This document shows, piece after piece, positions 6,864 to 59,782 of a stretch of 64,000 bases of DNA. The notes beneath the pieces were generated by a model, which had not been told where the DNA came from, ran no database searches, and saw nothing but the letters and a program-made list of their open reading frames with translations. The DNA is from Podarcis melisellensis (lineage: Eukaryota): NCBI GenBank assembly GCA_964234715.1, contig OZ174279.1; one strand, given 5' to 3'. Made by a program: the position numbers and the translations under genes. Each line of letters starts with the position of its first letter. The stretch's first letter is position 1.

Positions 6864-7433
6864 ATGGCTGAAAACTGGAAGAACTGTTTTGAAGAAGAAC
6901 TTATATGCCCCATTTGCCTGCATGTCTTTGTGGAACCTGTCCAGCTTCCTTGTAAGCACAACTTTTGTAGAGGATGCATAGGAGAGGCATGGGCCAAAGA
7001 GACAGGGCTTGTGCGTTGTCCTGAATGTAATCAGGCCTACAACCAAAAGCCCAACCTTGAGAAGAACTTAAAGCTGACCAACATTGTGGAGAAGTTCAAC
7101 TCTCTCAACCTGGAAAAGACTCCCTCCGTCTTACACTGTGTCTTCTGCCGGCGTGGGCCACCTTTGCCTGCCCAGAAGATCTGCCTGAGGTGCGAAGCTC
7201 CCTGCTGCCAGTCTCATGTTCAGACACACCTGCAGCAGCCCTCCACAGCACGTGGGCACCTCCTGGTGGAGGCGGATGACGTCAGGGCCTGGAGTTGCCC
7301 CCAGCACAATGCCTACCGGTTGTACCACTGCGAGGCTGAGCAGGTTGCGGTTTGCCAGTTTTGTTGCTACTACAGTGGGGCACACCAAGGGCATTCGGTG
7401 TGTGACGTGGAGATCCGGCGCAATGAGATCAGG
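6864..7433 (+). CDS. TRIM8: TRIM8 coding exon 1 (RING, B-box1, B-box2; aa 1-190)
   Basis: MAENWKNCFEEELICPICLHVFVEPVQLPCKHNFCRGCI...VEIRRNEIR is recognisable TRIM8; C3HC4 RING; Kozak GACATGG; donor AGG/GTAAGT at 7434; 570 nt, phase 0. Confidence 0.98.
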
Positions 7434-24920: not shown

Positions 24921-25830
24921 CTACCTTCTTTGACTTCAGCAACTCATTTAAAAGCATTATTGAGTTCATAATAGTTTTTTGTCATTATATGTATTTCCAA
25001 TTAATGGAGCCTAAAATTACAACAGTTAGTATGTTGGGATCTGTAAATTTTTTTGAGATTGAAAAGAGGTCCTTGTGCTCAAAAATTTGGCAACAGCTCT
25101 TTTGGGCCATAGCTGAGCTTTCAAGCCCAAGTGACTACTTTTCACTGGGCAGTTTTGAACTAAGTTTTATTCAAAGTAGACCTATTTAAATTAATGAATT
25201 AAAATTATTATTTATTAAATTTGTATACCACTTTTCATCCTCCGTAGATCTGAGGGCAGTTCACAGCAAAAAAAACAACAACACAAAATATATTATAAAA
25301 ACAGGAACAGGAACAAAAACAAAACAGTACGCCCCGCTCCTACAACCCCTCACTTAGTTTATTCAGAAACAAATGGCTAGCACAGCATTCTTGGTTTGTG
25401 TGGCTCCAGGAGGTGGTATGGTGTTTGTGCAGACAGTCTCCAGTTAACTTGTTTACACAGTTAACTTGTTTGCCTCCTGGTGCTGTAGAGTAGTCTTGTT
25501 CATCTTGTGGAGTAGCAACTAAGAGAAGCAGTGACTACTCGATTGAGATCCGCATCAATCTAGCTTTATGCCACATTCAACCCCCTATTTCATATAAAGT
25601 GCCCATTCACATGTTAATTCCCAGGAAGCAAACTTGTTCTAGTAAGAATCTTGAGTTCTTATGCAAGTCCTTTGGCCTGTCTCAGTATGAACAAAAACTG
25701 ATCTGTGCATAACGTTTAATTGAGCACCGTGGTATCTCATTGATCTACCCAATCCCATTCCTTCTAATCTATTTCTGGAAACAACTGTGTGTGGTGCACT
25801 GTGGTCGCATGAATCCAGTATATCCTACTC

Positions 25831-25968
25831 CAGATGTGGGGAACCGTTGACCTTTCATATGTTGCTGAACTCCAGCTCCCATCAGGCCCAGAAAGCATGG
25901 CCAATGGCTAGAAAGGACAGCAGCTGTAGTTCAGCAACATCTGGAGGATCAAAGTTTCCCCACAGCTG
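25831..25968. mobile_element. hAT-type palindromic MITE
   Basis: CAGATGTGGGGAA...TTCCCCACAGCTG; TSD TCCTACTC/GCCTAGTC (6 of 8 match). Confidence 0.75.
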
Positions 25969-28682
25969 GCCTAGTCCATTCAGAGTTTATACTCTGCATA
26001 CATTTCTCCTTTCCACATGGGAAGAGCTAGAGGATCCTGCATCTCTTCATTTTGAGTCTCATTTGCAGAGCAAACACAGACGATAGTTTGCCACTTCCAG
26101 TGAAATGCTAAGCTAGTTTGCCTGAAATCATCGTGGTAGGAACATATTAGCTGATTCAGGCACATAATGCCAAACCACCATTTAAATACAGTCATTATGA
26201 GCTTCTTGGACTTAGGGGCTAGCAAGTTATTAGATGCTAAGATCCAGGAGATGTCCTGCTTGCCACCATTTTGCAAATGGCTCCAGCCTGAGGGAGGTTG
26301 TCTTTCCACTGAAAGTTCTCTTCATCTGAACCTTCTTAAATGGTTCCTACAGCAGAATACTTAGGAACAGGCCCCTCTAAGGATAAATTATTTAATCACC
26401 CTGCAGTTCCTTTTTCTTTAGATGTGTTTACCGTAAGATGCAGGAATCTCTCCAGCTGAATTAAAATATAAACAGAGAGCGTTCATAGGAATTAGCCTTT
26501 TAGTTTAGTTTAGGTGAAGTCAAAGAAAAGGCAATGAGTCTAGATATTGTTGGGGTACTTGACTGACGCGCTTAGTAAAATAAAAACAAGTTGCAAGGGG
26601 TGCGTGGAAGACCATAAGTTCTTTCATGACCACACAAAGCTCACCTGGCATAGTGGCAGAGAGGCTGAGGTGCTGCTGGTTCATATTCCTCTTTTCCTAT
26701 TGACAAAGGTGGGATCTGCTTTGGGTGAGCAGGCATGGCTCTCAGTCTGCAATATGGGCAGGATACTTGTAAGGATCACTGAGGGGCTGTCTGTAGAGTG
26801 GTAATATTGTTGGTTTGAAAGGCAGACCCAACTTGCAGTTGGAAGAAGATTGTGGTATGCAGCTTGAATGAAAGGAGGACTGGAGTTCCTGGCTAAGTTT
26901 GAGTGTAACATGGTGCACATTGCAAACACCTCCCAAAGAGCAGGAGGCTTAAGTAATCTGGTTCTTGGCTTTGACTCTGTGTGTAATCTTCTACAGCCTG
27001 ACTCCCTCTGCCCCACCCATCCGCAGAGTGGAGGATGGTGGTGGTTTTTTTACGTGCATCCAGGCTGAGCTGAAAATACATCAGCTGTAGATGGATCCAG
27101 ATGAAACAGTTGGCAGACAGGGAAGTTCTGGATGACTGTCTCTTCCCTCTCCCTCTCTGAAATATGAGTAAATGTTGGCAAGCCAACCTGCTTGTAGATT
27201 CTGCTCCTTTTGGGGAGCCTTGTGGTTTGTAGTCCCCCTCCTCCCAATTCCAGCAATGTACATTTTTGGAACACCTTTTTCTTACTGTACGCGGAGGAGC
27301 TGGTAGAGTGAATCAGAGCAAGAAGCTCTGCGCTGTAGATTTGCTTGGGTTGCGCTGCCTCCGTTCAGTATTATTTAGCTTCCCTCTAATTAGCTGGCTT
27401 TAAAAGTCTGCCTCTTTCCAGAATGCATTTTTCACTTGTCCTACTTACTTCCTGATAGGTCTTTCTCCCCTCCCCCTTGCTGGTTTTCCCCCCTTCTTCT
27501 TTTTTGCTGACACTGCAAACAAGCATGAGGTTAGATGCTCAACCGCACACAAACGAATATTGATCTTTTCCCCCCTTCTTTTTCTTTTTTCTTTTTTGTC
27601 TGGAGGTTGGGAGGGTTTCTTCTGCCTTTGCAAGGGAAGGGACTGCCTTTGTGCCTGAGAAGGAGAAGCAGCGTTAAGGAGGTTCTGGGAATGTTCAGTT
27701 GGGTCTTCAGAGGGGATGGCCCTAATCTGCAGAAACAGCAGCCCAAGCTCACTGGAAGCAGGCAAGGATGGCCTAGCCCAGACAAAGGGACTCCTGTGTG
27801 TGTGAGAGTGTGTGTGTGCGCCTGCCTGCCTATCCCTTTGTTCTCTTGTACCATACGCTGACACTGAAAGCTGCTTTCCTATGGGCTTGGGGGTAGGGGG
27901 AGGAGACGGGGCAGGGTGTCTGGATTGCAAGCAAAATAAGATGAAAGCCAGAAGATCTCTGGCTCCATTGTGACCCCAGTGGTGGTGGAAAAACCGCAGG
28001 GATACTTTTGAATCTTCCTTGTCTCTTCCCAATCAGCTTATTAATGCACATTGCTTAAAAGAAATTCCCCTCTATCTGAGGGACCTGAAGTTAATCAGCA
28101 TTCTCCCATGGAAGAAAGGTTTTATCATGGAAAGGCAGGCCTATGTGAAGAGTCTTGTGTTGGTTAGCTAAATCATCATTGGGCTTGTGTTCCCAACAAA
28201 AACACTGTCCAGTTTCTTAGTTGTGTTAATTTGATAATCACCCAGCTCTGGAAATTTAGATGACTGATTTTGTTGTTGTTTACCAGACTTAAGGCCATGT
28301 TCTCCAACAAACAATCCTAGCAGCCCATATGACGGCTACCACATGGCCTTGTATGGTAGATGGCCTTTTTGCAAGGAAATGTTAATTGACAGACTGATGC
28401 TTCTTCTGTGCCCCCTGCTCTCTTACTACTACTTTCTTAAGACACCCTGAATTTCCCACGTATCCAGAAGAAATTACTTTGAAGCTTCAGACTCCTTGGT
28501 GGATAAGTGCACAAGTTTGCATTTGTGCCTTGCTTCCCAAGCTGGACCTAGATGACAATGTCACCTGCATTATACAGAGTTAGTCCTTAGATCCATCTAG
28601 CCTGGTTTCTCCAGGACTGTCTGGCAGCAGCTCTCCAGGGCTTGGGGCAGTATTCTTGGGCACATTTATTCATACCTTATAC

Positions 28683-28820
28683 CAGTGTTTCTCAAACTTG
28701 GGTCTCCAGCTGTTGTTGGGTTACAACTCCCATCCTCCCTGTCCACTGGTTCTGCTATACTTAGGGATGATGGGAGTTGTAGTCTAATAACAGCTGGAGA
28801 CCCAAGTTTGAGAAACACTG
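28683..28820. mobile_element. hAT (Charlie-like) palindromic MITE
   Basis: CAGTGTTTCTCAAACTTGGGTCTCCAGCTGTT ... AACAGCTGGAGACCCAAGTTTGAGAAACACTG near-perfect inverted arms. Confidence 0.9.
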
Positions 28821-28947
28821 CCATACTCAAATTTAATTTAACAGAGAAAGCAAGCTAGTAGATTTTATTACAATATATGAAATCAAATATTTATGTATTT
28901 TGCCTTTAGAATATGTTCCAGCTCTGAATACTCTTACTCATCTAGAG

Positions 28948-29083
28948 CAGTGTTTCCCAACCTTGTGCCTCCAGCTGTTTTTGAACTACAATTCCCATCA
29001 TCCCTTGCCACTGGTCTTGATAGTCAGGGATGATGGGAGTTGTAGTTCAAAAACAGCTGGAGGCACAAGGTTGGGAAACACTG
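28948..29083. mobile_element. hAT (Charlie-like) palindromic MITE, young
   Basis: ~58-bp inverted arms with one mismatch; perfect 8-bp TSD ATCTAGAG at 28940-28947 and 29084-29091. Confidence 0.93.
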
Positions 29084-30736
29084 ATCTAGAGCTCATTCTG
29101 TTTGACAACTGTCCCTTTTGCTTACCAGGCTTGTTAGCTTAATCATCTTCATTATTCAAGCATGTTTAATGCAGGCCACTATCAATTTTATGCTCTTTTG
29201 ATTTTGGCCACAGTTAGATAAGTTTAATAGCATTTCCACGTCAAGCTGCCCAAGACTCTGCTCCAAATAGTGCTTTGTGAGGTTGACCGCCTAAAAAGCA
29301 GCATAAAGGTACTTAAAATAAATACCCAAGAAGTGGTAGCAGAGGATCCATGTGAAAAATAAATAATTATTTGGACAGTCTGTCGAATCCTTTTTGAGAC
29401 CACACGGCCATCAGCACAATTTAGGAGGCTATATTTTATATCCTAAGAGTGCTGAGAACCTCAAGGCAGTTAATAGTTTACCCCACAAAAGTGAGTAGTT
29501 CAGTTCACTAAATTCACTTCAGTGAATAGTTCACAAAAGGAAGCTTGCAATTGGCTAGATCTGGTGTATCTATTTTTGTCAGGGGAATCTCAAAGGCATA
29601 ATCTGACCAGGTGACAGTCTGTCCCATATTCTTGGAAGACCCTTACAGAAATGTTTACAGGATATATTCATGGATATGGTGTCTGATAAGAGTGTCTGTT
29701 CAGCTGGTAGCACGTTTCACATGATCAAAGAACTAATAATAATGATAAAGGTCTGCCCTTGAACCTTGGTTCATGTGGATCGCCTAATGCTGAACTGGCA
29801 GCCCCAGTTAATTGGTGGCTAGGGAGTCAGTTCTCTAACATATGAGCCACAAGTGAATTTGAACTACCACCAATTATGTGGTAGAAATTTGCTTCCCCTG
29901 CTTTAGTTTGTAACATGTCCATAAGATGATCTCTTGAGTAATGCATGTGTGAAAATGTATTGCATACTGTACTGTCTGGTTGCCTTGCACAGTAACGGTT
30001 ATAGGAGACGGTTTGTATTAGTGCCAAAGGAGTTGGTGGGACATTTGGGTGAGATAGGCAATCTTCATTCCCTTTGCGTCTGTAGAATCAGTGCTGATTC
30101 TCATTGGAAATGAGAGTCCATGATGGATGAAGGAGATAAGGCTGCAACTGAATAGCTCTAGTTTATGTTAAAATTAATTTTTGAAATAATTAGTAGAACC
30201 ACTAACATTACACTGTGGCTGCCAACATAATTGTTAGTAGATTGCATGACTTTTGAATTTGAAGAACTTCACATGTGAGGTGGGGGTGACCTTACAGACA
30301 AATATTCGTACATTCCAGGATATCCACAGCCACAATTCCCAATGTCTTGCCTCTGGGCTGTTTCCCTTCTTAATATCCCATTCTATGCATTAACTCAATG
30401 GTTCTTTCTCTGTCCAGTTCTCTTTCACCCTCGTCCATCTTCAGTTCCCTGCCTGGTTTGATATGGAATAGTTATAACCTCATGGAGAAGGTATTAGGCA
30501 TAGAAAAATTCCTGGGGGTGGGAGTTTGCATGTGTGTTGCCAATGGCAGTAGCTCACAAGGCATCGTGCTCTTTTTTAATCCTTTGCTTCACAATCACAG
30601 GGACTGATAGTAATAATAGGAGCCAGCAAAAATGGGGGACGTTTTGTTGGGGTGCTTGCTGTATAATAATGCCAGCTGCTTTCCTAATTCTCTAATTAGA
30701 AGCAACCTGACTTTGCCATTCCCAAGATAGGAAGGG

Positions 30737-43960: not shown

Positions 43961-44098
43961 ATGAAAATAACCTCCGCTTTGGGATGCTATAGCAACGTGA
44001 TGAAACCCCTGAGCCACTACTCCTGACATTAGTTGTCCTGGAAACCACCAAACACTCAAAGCTCCTTGCAATAGAAGAACCACCCTACACACAAGTAC

Positions 44099-44234
44099 CA
44101 GGCATAGGCAAACTCGGCCCTCCAGATGTTTTGGGACTACAACTCCCATCATCCCTAGCTAACAGGACCAGTGGTCAGGGATGATGGGAGTTGTAGTCCC
44201 AAAACATCTGGAGGGCCGAGTTTGCCTATGCTTG
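44099..44234. mobile_element. hAT palindromic MITE, young
   Basis: Near-perfect ~58-bp arms; same subfamily as 34945-35064 with the loop in opposite orientation. Confidence 0.92.
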
Positions 44235-54812: not shown

Positions 54813-57591
54813 AACAAACATGTAAACTGCAATTATCCACATGATAGTCGATCAGCAATAGCCACAGCAATTGGATAGAGCTTAATCATCATGTGAAATA
54901 ATTGTTGATCGGTACCATAGCTGGACAATGTTATCTGGGACAAAGGTTTGCATTTTACTGTTAAGATTATACACCAAACACATTTGTTGATGCAGAAGAT
55001 AAAGACTCTGCAGGACTAGTTTATCTGGATCTTTTATTATCACAAAAAGCTCATTTGCCAGAAATGAGATCAACTTCCCCAGCTGCATGAAGTCAACCAG
55101 GAAGCTTTCTCATCCGAAAAGGTGTTTGCCTAAAGCCCTTTCATCTCTCTTACGTCTTCCAAACCAGTGAAGATCCATTATAAATAATGTCCTTCCCCCA
55201 CACTTCAGAAAGGACTGAAAATTGCAATGTCTGGATTAATTTCTGCCCCATGCATTCATTGTGCCATTGTCAAAAGTGCCATTTTATTCCTCCCACCCTG
55301 GTCATTTCTCCAGATATGATAACTGGGCTGGATGAGGGCCTGGAAAAGCCAGCCTAGTGAAGGCACTTAACTAAAAATTGGGCACAATATGGAAGTTGAT
55401 ACCTTCAGTTGATATTACACTACAGCAGGCTTGCACAACTTGTGACCTACCGAGCATGTATACTGATTCATGTTTGTGTCTGTAGAAGACATGTTGAGTA
55501 CCTGGTGGGCTAAATGGGTCACAAGTTGTAGAGGCCTGCACTGGGCGAGATATATGCGTTCCAATATTATTGGTCTCTTTGGTTGCTGTACTATCAGTAG
55601 TATATATTCCTTCCACCACTTAATCTTCCATCTTCCTTCATAGTGTGCTCCTTCCTTCCTTCCTTTTTGCCAGATCAATCTAAAATGTATTACTTGGCAT
55701 TTCCTAAATCGTGCTGTTGATAACCAGAGTCAAACTCTTCTGTTATTTACGATGTCTATCTTCTTAGGTGTGTCAGTAGTACATTTTTTAAAAAGTACTT
55801 TAAAAATGGCAAGCAGCTATATGGTTTATTGATATAAGAATCATGACAATAATAAAAAAATCTCAAAAATTAAATATGAAGTAAAACTGAGGGAAAACTT
55901 ACATAAGCCTCAAACAGGACGGAGTCAAGTAAAATGAAAGCCGAACTCTTGTATATGTTACAGTGTTGCCCATTGTGTTAATAATAACCTTGAAATAATT
56001 AACTGTGAGAGCATGAGACTGTTTTTTTAAAAAAAATGTTTTAGATATGTGTTTGTTTTGTTTTTAAGTGTATTGGCTTCTGTTCAACGTAGTGCTAAGG
56101 TCATGGTTTCCTCAGCGCAAGGATTTTCCTTATACCACAATAATTTATTTCCATGTCCTCCACCAATGCGCTCCACAATCTGTTTTAGGGTTCTTCCAAC
56201 CTTCCAGAGCAGACTCAGAGGACTGTGTGGGGCACATGCAGTGGGAGTAGAGAATGATATTCCCATTGGATTAGTGGGAATTCTTGAAAGGGCTTCTGCC
56301 ACTGCAACTACCGTATTTAGTTGATTAAGGCCCATTATTTTGCTAATTTGTTGCTGTTTGCTGCCCTTGACTCCTGGGGGGGGGGTAGGGTCAGATAGAA
56401 ATTAAATAATTAAAATATTTCTAAATATATTAAGAAAAGCATGAGTGAGATACCTCTCAGGTTTTCTCACACCGAGATTCATACTTTTCAATTTTTGATT
56501 GACAAACCCATGACATTAATACATCTCCAGCATGGAATAGAATTGCCAGTCTACAAGCATGCTTGGGAAAGGTGAGGTTGGTGGGTAGAAACTTTTGCTG
56601 TTACTCTCTGAATATGATAAACTAAGCTTGTTCATGGCTTTGGGGATGGAGTTAAAAACACATTTATTCAGGGATTGATTAAGGATGCAATCGATAATCG
56701 CAGAGGTATCCCAGGAGCTATAGGATATTGTGAATCTCCCTTCACAGGCAAAGGGGGAACTGCATTGCTAGAGATCCTTTCTGGATGACTTCAGAAATTT
56801 CTGAGATTGTAGCTGTGATGGAGGCGGGGCTGAAAACAGGGTAGCTTGTGTGGATGTCTGCTCAACAGGATCCTTGTCTCCCTCATAGCACCAAACAGAA
56901 CCAGAAACCACTGGCACGAGACCATACCTAGTTAATTCCCTTGCTTAAGAGGCAGTTGAAGGGAACAAAAAAGACAGAAGCAAGGGCTTAGGAGATGGAG
57001 GGTACCTCTGTTGTTGATCTCCCACAACTGCCACCAGAAGGGTTGCTTTGCCTGTGGTCTTGAGCCGGTTACCCTGCCTTCAAGGGATCAGAGATGCCTT
57101 TTTAAGGGAACGGGCTAATGGTTAGAAGATGCCTTCAGTCTGATCCAGCATAGTATCCAATACCAAAAGGGAGATCTCACAAGTGAGGAGTGCAGGCCCT
57201 CCATCTTCTCCAAACTGGCTACACCATTGGCCATTATTGTTTTCCCTAGGTTATTTTTGTGGCTAACAAGAAATTTGTTGCTAACAAGAAAACAAGTTTT
57301 TGAGGGGATGGGGACTTCAGGATCAAGAAGTATTGGAGTTCTCCTCATGACATTTTAGCTCTCTGGGTATGTTTTTGAAAGCTCATGTAGGGAACTAGCC
57401 AGGAAACGATGGACGCTGCATATTTATAACACAGGATGGTCCTGAAAAGGCAGCTCATGTGTCTTCTAGAAACTTTATTCTTTTTTTGGAGCTTGGGAGG
57501 GAGACTGCTTTCCTTGTTCTTGTAATGTCACAGTGGCTGTGTGTGGGCATCGCGATGCACCATAGTTTATGCTTTAGCGTGGACATGCAGG

Positions 57592-58176
57592 TGTCAGATG
57601 TAGGTTAGTGATAAAAGAACACAGTGTTGGCGATGTTAACTCTTTAACGAAGAAACCAAAACAGCACAGGCTTAGTGATCCCAGCAGCTCTTCCTAGTAG
57701 GTCTTAACACCCAATGAGGCAGTTGCAAGGACTGAAGGTTCGCACCTTCCCACAGCTGCCTAAGTCCCCACCTCTCCAGGGTTTTTTCCAAGCAATTGGG
57801 GACAGTGTCTGCACGCAACAATCCTCTTCTCTTTTCATTTCTGTGTGTGTTGTGAGAGACCGGGGGGGGGGGGCTAGCTACAGCGGGAAGGGGAGACTCC
57901 CTGGATTCTTCAGCAGCCGGCCTCATCTCTGTCTCCTGGCCCTCCTCCTCTCCAGCCTCTGAAGCAGGACTGCTCTCTGCCTCAGGCTCTTCCTGCTCAC
58001 TAAACCCTGTTGCCTTTGGACACCTCCTTCCTTCCTTCTGCTCCTTCCCCCCCTCTGACCACTCAGGGTCATCCCACCACCAGTCTCCTGGCTCTGAGCC
58101 TCCTTCCCCTGGGGGTTCCCTTGGGGGTTTCCCAGCTGGTGCCTCCCACTACTCTGCCTCCAGCCAATCCATGACA
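57592..58176 (-). mobile_element. Solo LTR-like element (585 bp), possibly Gypsy-type
   Basis: TGTCA...TGACA termini; purine-rich minus strand; decayed polyA-like GTTAAA ~50 nt from the 3' end; no clean TSD (GCAGG/GCGAA). Confidence 0.7.
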
Positions 58177-58645
58177 GCGAATGACTCTCGTTTCACTGTT
58201 TCACTCAGCAGGAGAAACAAACAACAAAGCCAGACTTCACACTCTGTTCAAAGTGGTTTATTTTGCTACAAGCAAGTCATGATGTGAAGCCAAGCTTTTG
58301 CTCTTCGCTCCCCTTTCATAGTTTGTTTGAGGGTTTCCTGGCATGGACATTAACGCTAAACCTGGGCAACCTTGTTTGTTGCTCCCACTTGCGCAAGGAG
58401 ATGAACAAAGCAGTAGTCTTAGTCAATGGGTTTCTGTGAAGAGTGAGAGCTAAGAGTTCTAGAAGACATTTTGACTTATGGCTCTCACTGTAGGTGTGAG
58501 ATGCAAACTCCATTTGATACATTACATCAAAAGCAGTAATGCATAAGTGATTTTAAAATTATCCTGCTTCCAGGTAACTTGTAAACCAGTTCTGGAACAC
58601 ACTTTTTCTGACTCTTGATTTTCCTGTTTGTCCCTTTTCTTGCAG

Positions 58646-58741
58646 AAGATGCTCGTGAAGCAGCAGGACCGCCTGGAGGAACGCGAACAAGACATTGAGG
58701 AGCAGCTCTACAAGTTGGAGTCTGACAAGCGGCTGGTTGAA
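58646..58741 (+). CDS. TRIM8: TRIM8 coding exon 2 (coiled coil)
   Basis: Polypyrimidine tract plus TTGCAG; encodes KMLVKQQDRLEEREQDIEEQLYKLESDKRLVE; donor GAA/GTAACT; 96 nt. Confidence 0.97.
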
Positions 58742-59548
58742 GTAACTTGGATTTCTCTCTTCTTCCCTCCCCTCCCCGGTGTTAGACGCAAGAAGGATGC
58801 TGGGCTGCAATTACCCACCAGTCAAGGAAATACCTTGATAGAGGAACTGGGAAGGGAGAAAGTTTCAGCCAGCATAGCAATAATGGAATCCTAGGTTAGA
58901 AGACCTTATTCTGCCTGCCTGCTGTAGCTCCTAAGCAAACCCAGTAGCCAAAGTTTAAAGGACACAAGGGTGTGAAGTCTTTGGCAGAGAGAGCAAAAAT
59001 GGCTGACTCTGCAAGCATCTCTCCATACAGCTGTAAATCCAAGAACTTGCTTTGTTCAGCAGGGACGGACCTCTCAAGGTTTGGTTCCCATCATCCTATC
59101 CCTCCTGGTGCCTTACTTAAGTAACCCTACTTTCTTCTTCTGTGATGAGGAACAAAGACCAAGAGTCCTCACTCACAGCCTCCTTCTAGTTAATATATAC
59201 CCCATTCTCTTCCTGGTTGCCTGGTGTTCCCTCTGCAATGGCTACTAGTTTAGTTTCCCCCAAACTGGATAGCCACTTTATCCTGTTCCTTTACTGAACA
59301 ACTCTGTATTCTTGTGGCTCCCTCCTAGTCTGATCAAAGCAAAGTCAGTAACCTATGCTTTTTTGTTCTTCAGAAAAAAATTGAGAGCCTGCGTAGGTGC
59401 CCTAGGCATAGCTACTGCATAAAGGAACACCAGTCATTTAGTTTCAGAGTGCATCCTCCCCACCCAGCCTCAGTCACAAAAGATAAAGCAAGTAGGGATG
59501 AAGGGAGGCTAAGAAGAGGCATTTTTCTTCCCCCTTCTATACCACCAG

Positions 59549-59782
59549 GAGAAGGTCAACCAGCTGAAGGACGAGGTGCGCCTGCAGTATGAGAAGATGC
59601 ACCAGATCCTTGAGGAGGATCTGCGCAAGACGATGGAGATCCTAGACAAGGCCCAGGCAAAATTCTGCAACGAGAATGCTGCCCAGGTGCTGCACCTCAG
59701 CGAGCGGATGCAGGAGGCCAAGAAGCTGCTCAGCTCCGTTCAGGTCATGTATGACAAGACTGAGGACATCAACTTCATGAAG
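59549..59782 (+). CDS. TRIM8: TRIM8 coding exon 3 (coiled coil)
   Basis: Acceptor CACCAG; encodes EKVNQLKDEVRLQYEKMHQILEEDL...DKTEDINFMK; donor AAG/GTGAAG; 234 nt. Confidence 0.97.

What the first reader, a model, noticed from the sequence alone, without database searches (positions are those of the whole stretch)
57592..58176. Solo LTR-like element almost entirely occupied by an acidic, Trp-rich ORF
Seen: on the minus strand an ATG at the 5th base of the element (58172) opens a frame to 57672 (166 codons) broken only by one TAG at codon 8: MDWLEAE*WEAPAGKPPREPPGEGGSEPGDWWWDDPEWSEGGKEQ...SEQEEPEAESSPASEAGEEEGQETEMRPAAEESRESPLPAVASPPPP.... The ORF track shows only its last 84 aa. Acidic residues with spaced Trp resemble an acidic activation domain. 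An alternative distal frame reads CRHCPQLLGK, which could derive from an RRSPRL-type chromatin-binding/NLS motif partly by CpG decay (inference). Knowledge: LTR-overlapping ORFs exist in retroviruses (MMTV sag, HIV nef, foamy virus bel) but are unusual for LTR retrotransposons. This may be an undescribed LTR-encoded accessory protein or transactivator in lizards. It sits antisense, 470 bp upstream of exon 2.
Basis: partly seen in the sequence, partly recalled or inferred. Interest (0 to 1): 0.7.

Follow-up and report, generated by a model that had tools for sequence, protein, structure and literature searches.

The report
Dead LTR encoding integrase's tail
This is a broken, leftover end-repeat of an old lizard jumping gene; its protein-like text is real but is most likely the tail end of the element's integrase rather than a separate gene, and in better-preserved copies it carries a short motif predicted to grip nucleosomes the way the host's HMGN proteins do.

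Summary
Window 57592-58176 is one dead solo LTR of a family with thousands of candidate copies (5-bp target duplications, Sushi-type ends), antisense in TRIM8 intron 1 and shared by related species. The frame is there as described, but its length alone is unremarkable (7-15% of shuffles match it) and it is a patchwork of frames. Across 80 copies the coding history is real: first shared stop at LTR base 415, length variants mostly in threes, net dN/dS between subfamilies 0.38. It is likely not a stand-alone gene. In 8 intact young chromodomain-Gypsy elements of this genome Pol reads through the polypurine tract into the 3' LTR in the same register for 100-218 codons (dN/dS 0.19-0.28); a weakly homologous sister LTR follows a chromodomain in frame and has no ATG there. 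No internal region was found for this very family (0 of 113 flanks), so that link is inferred. Copies read RRSLRL (intact relative: RRSARL), like the HMGN motif; a model docks it on the H2A-H2B acidic patch (0.64 vs control 0.00, 2 of 3 runs). Plant chromoviruses are the precedent. The scan noted LTR-internal ORFs before only in other organisms' elements.

The parts
57592..58176 (-). solo LTR of an old high-copy Ty3/Gypsy family, likely chromovirus (Sushi-like)
   Evidence: 4194 first-look candidates, best 40 scored, other copies 72-79% identical over most of its length; 5-bp target duplications in the family; no shared internal flank
58170..58176 (-).
   Evidence: matches the Sushi 5' motif TGTYANR of PMC3601003 Table 3
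57760..58175 (-). remnant of the family reading frame (about 128-145 codons in other copies), likely the C-terminal tail of Pol/integrase; broken here by one stop and four deletions
   Evidence: same register as Pol read-through in relatives
58149..58151 (-). premature TAG at codon 8 (a 3-base deletion lies just before it)
57793..57810 (-). decayed RRSxRL-type motif (reads RHCPQL here, out of frame with the ATG)
57760..57762 (-). family stop codon TAG (element base 415)
   Evidence: first triplet with a stop in 30% or more of copies in that frame; 77%
57643..57648 (-). position of the family's AATAAA poly(A) signal, altered in this copy (GTTAAA)
   Evidence: window sequence against other copies
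57587..57591 (+). left flank, decayed half of a 5-bp target duplication (GCAGG)
   Evidence: 2 of 5 identical to the right flank, the three differences being A/G transitions
58177..58181 (+). right flank, other half of the target duplication (GCGAA)
58646..58741 (+). TRIM8 exon 2 (host gene; the LTR lies in its ~51-kb intron 1, exon 1 ending near 7433)
   Evidence: the next exon matches TRIM8 at up to 97%; spliced reads 58741-59549 and loose ends matching exon 1

Best explanation
The element is a dead solo LTR of a Ty3/Gypsy family whose U3 once coded for protein, likely the last ~140 residues of the Pol polyprotein (read from integrase and chromodomain through the polypurine tract into the 3' LTR), a disordered acidic tail ending in an RRSLRL motif predicted to anchor the integration complex on the nucleosome acidic patch. 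Shown: solo LTR, coding history of the family, this copy broken, Pol read-through in the same register in young and sister families. Inferred: that this very family was built the same way (about 0.8). Predicted only: acidic-patch docking as the tail's job (about 0.45); nuclear import is the main alternative job. After LTR-LTR recombination the solo LTR keeps the text but has lost the upstream Pol frame, so it decays neutrally.
For: LTR identity: ends match the Sushi att motifs TGTYANR/CNTNACA; 5-bp flanks 64% identical against 28% by chance in 44 copies with both ends, 4-, 6- and 7-bp at chance. Coding history: one frame has no shared stop up to base 415, the other two have 4 and 7 shared stops in that stretch; modal spacings between codon anchors are all multiples of three and 15 of 19 recurrent length classes differ in threes, against 3 of 7 in the 3' part (counted); net dN/dS between two subfamilies 0.38, bootstrap 0.24-0.77, against 2.66 and 0.72 in shifted frames; transversions at 0-fold versus 4-fold sites 0.52 between subfamilies, 1.52 and 1.05 in shifted frames. 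Pol tail: of 20 young elements fetched, the 8 with paired LTRs and an unbroken Pol all enter the 3' LTR with codons starting at LTR base 2, run 100-218 codons, dN/dS 0.19-0.28 in 9 pairs; another family reads chromodomain-PPT-V-M-A-W...acidic...RRSARL-stop, in frame in 19 of 28 loci, RRSARL in 24 of 28; a sister LTR (V-R-D-W-T-E-E-E-W-W, SPRT block) sits right behind SH3+chromodomain+PPT, in frame in 5 of 8 independent decayed junctions and is weakly homologous to ours (nhmmer up to 12.5 bits, best of 600 shuffles 6.2; N-terminal score above 200 of 200 permutations); L143 has our exact 13-base start behind a chromodomain. Motif: HMGN RRSARLSA and Dsup RRSSR bind the acidic patch (PMC12487698); model of H2A-H2B with a natural 37-residue copy of our family scored 0.64, best of 3 controls 0.00 (mark reached by 51 of 78 solved and 2 of 108 mismatched pairs), motif residues on H2A E61/E64 and H2B Q47/E105/H109; runs agree in at least 0% of contacts, partner pLDDT at least 42.
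Against: No internal region was found for this family: 0 of 113 upstream flanks share a junction or carry Pol in the sense direction, although about half were picked for purine-rich upstream DNA. Homology to the sister LTR is weak, and 3 of the sister-type LTRs tested gave no hit; BLASTP of our C-terminal piece against the RRSARL family's Pol is not significant (E 0.53). The ATG is present in 87 of 108 copies with a 5' end and has G at -3 and +4. The RRSxRL motif is absent from two young families and from the sister family, only 4 of 72 copies read it intact, and 9 of 28 loci of the RRSARL family have a G-run change that cuts the tail off; that family's tail has dN/dS 0.56-0.74. One of three model runs gave 0.01, peptides are outside the tool's calibration, controls were not basic peptides, and like complexes are solved, so the pass may be from memory.
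Confidence: 0.75

Rival explanations
1. The U3 frame is a separate small accessory gene translated from its own ATG on a spliced or internally started RNA (like nef or sag; the first reader's transactivator).
For: ATG in 87 of 108 copies in a strong context; two other LTR families also have ATG at this codon; acidic residues with Trp (net charge -23 in the first 70%, 6 Trp); no Pol junction found for this family.
Against: The ATG is inside the att motif; sister and two young families have AGG there yet keep the frame; the frame is continuous with Pol in relatives; no Pfam family, no longer homologue and only 4 short gene-caller products were found.
Confidence: 0.13
2. It is the Pol tail, but its job is nuclear import or non-specific DNA/RNA binding through a basic helix, not acidic-patch anchoring.
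For: All six tails compared end in a basic segment after an acidic or neutral one, but only two have RRSxRL; integrase NLSs are known in LTR retrotransposons (PMC3605345).
Against: The exact RRS[AL]RL word recurs in two families with otherwise unalignable tails; the model places it on the acidic patch.
Confidence: 0.35
3. The open frame is a by-product of GA-rich composition in a non-coding LTR.
For: In this single copy the frame length is within chance; only 1 of 70 copies is open from start to family stop.
Against: Frame-specific stop pattern, indels in threes, dN/dS and transversion ratios below 1 only in this frame.
Confidence: 0.04
4. This particular copy has been co-opted by the host as an antisense coding or regulatory unit of TRIM8.
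For: The insertion is fixed and shared with related organisms.
Against: One stop, four deletions, a lost motif, an altered poly(A) signal; in three raw RNA runs of a related-label organism TRIM8 exons are covered and spliced while depth over the LTR-flank bins is 0-0.3, and reads on the LTR carry other copies' letters and loose ends.
Confidence: 0.03

Closest known systems
Plant chromoviruses whose gag-pol frame runs into the 3' LTR: CRM group A with the CR motif (Neumann et al. 2011, PMC3059260, passages read); Beetle7 and Bingo1-4/7 of Beta vulgaris (PMC3605345, passages read)
   Same: Pol/integrase C-terminus encoded in the LTR downstream of the polypurine tract, and proposed to target chromatin.
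   Different: Here vertebrate elements; relatives keep a true chromodomain before the PPT and add a 100-218-residue acidic tail; no likeness to the CR motif was tested or seen; the tail ends in RRSxRL or another basic helix.
Sushi-clade chromovirus LTRs (PMC3601003, passages and section 12 read)
   Same: att motifs TGTYANR/CNTNACA; AATAAA close to the 3' end.
   Different: The fish-based Sushi model has a T-rich U3 and a TATA-like stretch; this U3 is GA-rich and coding, and I saw no TATA box; the passages searched do not mention an ORF.
HMGN / Dsup nucleosome-binding motif (PMC12487698, passages read)
   Same: RRSxRL word in a disordered, partly acidic protein; model contacts on the same H2A/H2B residues.
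   Different: Here on a retrotransposon Pol tail; the SA of RRSARLSA is not kept; binding only predicted.
LTR-overlapping retroviral genes nef, MMTV sag, foamy bel (recalled, no call)
   Same: U3 doubles as coding sequence.
   Different: Those are separate genes on spliced RNAs; here the frame is likely the end of Pol.

Membership tests
Solo LTR of an LTR retrotransposon | TG...CA ends with a target-site duplication of fixed length | tested here: met
   5-bp duplication, 0.64 against 0.28 identity in 44 copies; window copy itself 2 of 5
Solo LTR of an LTR retrotransposon | Dispersed repeat with unrelated flanks and a poly(A) signal near the 3' end | tested here: met
   AATAAA in other copies
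Chromovirus (Sushi-like Ty3/Gypsy) | att motifs TGTYANR / CNTNACA | tested here: met
   the window copy's 3' motif is damaged by a 13-base loss
Chromovirus (Sushi-like Ty3/Gypsy) | LTR flanks gag-pol with RT-RH-IN and a chromodomain; PBS and PPT | tested here: inconclusive
   Not found for this family (0 of 113 flanks); found for sister LTRs with the same start
Chromovirus (Sushi-like Ty3/Gypsy) | RT phylogeny within the chromovirus branch | not tested
   No RT is linked to this family; no tree was built for the relatives, which were assigned by Pfam domains only
Pol-into-LTR read-through (CRM group A type) | Pol frame continuous across the PPT into U3 | tested here: inconclusive
   Met in relatives (8 of 8 intact, 19 of 28, 5 of 8); not observable for this family
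Pol-into-LTR read-through (CRM group A type) | CR motif and centromeric location | not tested
   Copies found lie along many contigs; CR-motif likeness was not searched
HMGN-like nucleosome-binding motif | RRSxR word | tested here: met
   RRSLRL in 4 of 72 copies, CpG-decay codons in most others; RRSARL in 24 of 28 loci of a young family; lost in the window copy
HMGN-like nucleosome-binding motif | Binding to the H2A-H2B acidic patch | tested here: inconclusive
   Model only: 0.64 against control 0.00, 2 of 3 runs, agreement at least 0%, pLDDT at least 42
Stand-alone U3 accessory gene (nef/sag type) | Own conserved start codon and stop separating it from pol/env | tested here: not met
   In relatives the frame is continuous with Pol and the ATG is replaced by AGG in three families; the upstream side of this family itself could not be seen

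The most novel reading that the evidence does not exclude
Lizard chromoviruses routinely write the end of their integrase into the LTR, and at least two families use that tail to carry an HMGN-like arginine anchor, giving integrase a two-point grip on nucleosomes (chromodomain on H3 tails plus RRSxRL on the acidic patch); thousands of solo LTRs such as this one are fossils of that targeting module.
Probability: 0.4. Interest if true: 0.7.

Novelty: new variant of a known kind. Interest (0 to 1): 0.48.

Why it matters
The copy itself is ordinary decayed DNA. The family-level layout matters: it explains why many lizard LTRs look coding, shows that U3 is under protein-level selection in live elements, and offers a short, directly testable motif for how a vertebrate Gypsy integrase could pick nucleosomal target sites. 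An acidic-patch anchor on a retrotransposon integrase did not turn up in my paper searches, and the HMGN structure paper predicts undiscovered proteins with this motif.

Tried and rejected
Four pattern searches for a PPT or PBS next to this family's LTR (with checks 15, 26, 29, 43, 48, 56) found no Pol junction; 45 of the 145 matches were not listed, and of the 35 matches without a locus I fetched 20. L033 has Pol next to an LTR piece but in the opposite direction. A search with the L143 junction gave only itself and one weak piece. Protein searches: no Pfam family, no longer homologue among 380 candidates, 4 short unnamed products from decayed copies elsewhere, no Atlas hit for the young family's tail. 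No run on record as RNA was listed as a holder of the stretch. The bacterial promoter scan and the PDB look-up of exon 2 were uninformative. The Fisher test counts related copies as independent, so I rely on the count of length classes instead. dN/dS for integrase in the L112-L118 pairs failed because the upstream frame of L118 is broken. Papers on vertebrate chromoviruses in subscription journals and Repbase entries could not be searched and may already note the read-through; no supplements were opened.

Full report
Observation. The element runs from TGTCA at 58176 to TGACA at 57592 on the minus strand, with the ATG, the codon-8 TAG and the peptides as quoted. The host gene is TRIM8; RNA reads define exon 2 as 58646-58741 and join it to an exon ending near 7433, so the LTR lies antisense in intron 1, 470 bp before exon 2. 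The frame length alone is not special: 135 of 2000 dinucleotide shuffles, 308 of 2000 block shuffles and 13 of 80 family copies reach 158 codons.

What it is. A DNA search of the genome gave 4194 first-look candidates, of which 40 were scored; the other near-full-length copies are 72-79% identical; a protein search gave 6454 candidates. From all fetched loci I took 145 distinct copies, 80 near full length. In the 44 with both ends recognisable the 5-base flanks are 64% identical against 28% for random pairs, while 4, 6 and 7 bases are at chance. The ends fit the Sushi chromovirus att motifs (PMC3601003 Table 3). Copies differ by about 25% from each other. Contigs of two related organisms bridge both junctions and hold 13 more bases at the LTR 3' end, so the insertion is old and fixed, and this copy lost those bases later.

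Coding history. One frame has no shared stop before element base 415 (stop in 77% of copies), while the other two frames have 4 and 7 shared stops in that stretch. All modal distances between codon anchors are multiples of three, and 15 of 19 recurrent length classes differ in threes against 3 of 7 in the 3' part (counted). Net dN/dS between two subfamilies is 0.38 (bootstrap 0.24-0.77; shifted frames 2.66 and 0.72), and a CpG-proof transversion test agrees (0.52 against 1.52 and 1.05). Only 1 of 70 copies is still open. The window copy has one stop and deletions of 1, 8, 2 and 5 bases, so its 166-codon frame is a patchwork and misses the family's C-terminal motif.

Whose frame. I fetched 20 young Gypsy elements; five scanned have RT/RNase H, integrase and SH3 domains, three of them a Pfam chromodomain. 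In the 8 with paired LTRs and an unbroken Pol, Pol reads through the polypurine tract into the 3' LTR with codons starting at LTR base 2, the register of our frame, for 100-218 codons; the LTR-encoded part has dN/dS 0.19-0.28 in 9 pairs against 0.04-0.11 for the integrase core. The other 12 were broken before or at the junction or had no paired LTR in the 10 kb fetched. A further family reads chromodomain, PPT, V-M-A-W, about 100 acidic residues, RRSARL and a stop just before a TATA-like box, in frame in 19 of 28 loci, the other 9 having a changed G-run. A sister LTR beginning V-R-D-W-T-E-E-E-W-W and sharing the SPRT block lies directly behind SH3, chromodomain and PPT; 5 of 8 independent decayed junctions are in frame (four duplicated loci counted once, one disrupted junction left out). 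Its homology to our LTR is weak but above controls, and it has AGG where ours has ATG. L143 has our exact 13-base start behind a chromodomain, with one frameshift. For our family itself no internal region turned up in 113 upstream flanks, so its Pol link is inferred, not shown.

Mechanism. In the live element the 3' LTR is part of the genomic RNA, so its U3 would be translated as the end of Pol; a solo LTR has no upstream frame and decays. All six tails compared end in a basic segment. In our family it reads RRSLRL in 4 of 72 copies, with CpG-decay codons at both Arg positions in most others. HMGN (RRSARLSA) and Dsup (RRSSR) bind the nucleosome acidic patch through such a word (PMC12487698, passages). 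A model of the genome's own H2A and H2B with a natural 37-residue copy scored 0.64 against a best control of 0.00 (mark reached by 51 of 78 solved and 2 of 108 mismatched pairs), placing the motif on H2A E61/E64 and H2B Q47/E105/H109; one run of three failed, runs agree in at least 0% of contacts, partner pLDDT is at least 42, peptides are outside the calibration, and like complexes are solved, so the pass shows likeness rather than binding. The motif is missing from three related families, which favours an NLS or general basic tail as a serious rival.

Expression. In two bulk and one single-cell raw RNA runs (6-12% of each read; organism A, which may be only a relative) TRIM8 exons are covered, bins across the LTR junctions have depth 0-0.3, and reads on the LTR come from other copies. 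Nothing suggests use of this copy.

Known versus new. Pol running into the 3' LTR is published for plant chromoviruses (PMC3059260 and PMC3605345, passages). My ten searches (listings and abstract starts only, apart from passages of five papers) found no report of it in reptiles, nor of an acidic-patch motif on a retrotransposon integrase; subscription papers and Repbase were out of reach. nef, sag and bel are recalled, not checked. Verdict: dead copy, real family-level coding LTR, new variant of a known kind, interest 0.48.

Noticed in passing
G000:C4:98.7-105.3 Mb; L176:4435-4705; related pieces L158, L215, L227-L229: A 5' piece of this LTR family is repeated more than 50 times in a cluster; in the one unit examined it lies on the sense strand between a SCAN exon and a KRAB exon of a zinc-finger gene, about 45 bases behind a likely splice donor, with 89 codons still open. 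It was probably copied with the gene cluster; exonisation was not tested.
   Followed up: partly
L112-L139; L086, L087, L091: About a third of young chromovirus copies have a one- or two-base change in the G-run at the polypurine tract that cuts off the LTR-encoded tail; real slippage or assembly error is not resolved.
   Followed up: no
G000:C19: Contig C19 holds a large share of the young Gypsy integrase and chromodomain hits, as a W-like, repeat-accumulating chromosome would.
   Followed up: no
L144 / L175:7498-8339: Two LTRs of different subfamilies of this family lie one inside or directly behind the other.
   Followed up: no
L033: An internally deleted LTR of this family sits next to, and antisense to, the RT region of another Gypsy element (85% to L074's RT).
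   Followed up: partly
L073-L079, L076-L091: Two young families end their LTR-encoded tails with an Arg-rich helix followed by L-x-W/C-W-type residues instead of RRSxRL, a second kind of conserved terminal motif.
   Followed up: no
window 28678-29090, 44096-44234, 25825-25974: Short palindromic, MITE-like repeats with 58-65-bp inverted arms in TRIM8 intron 1.
   Followed up: no
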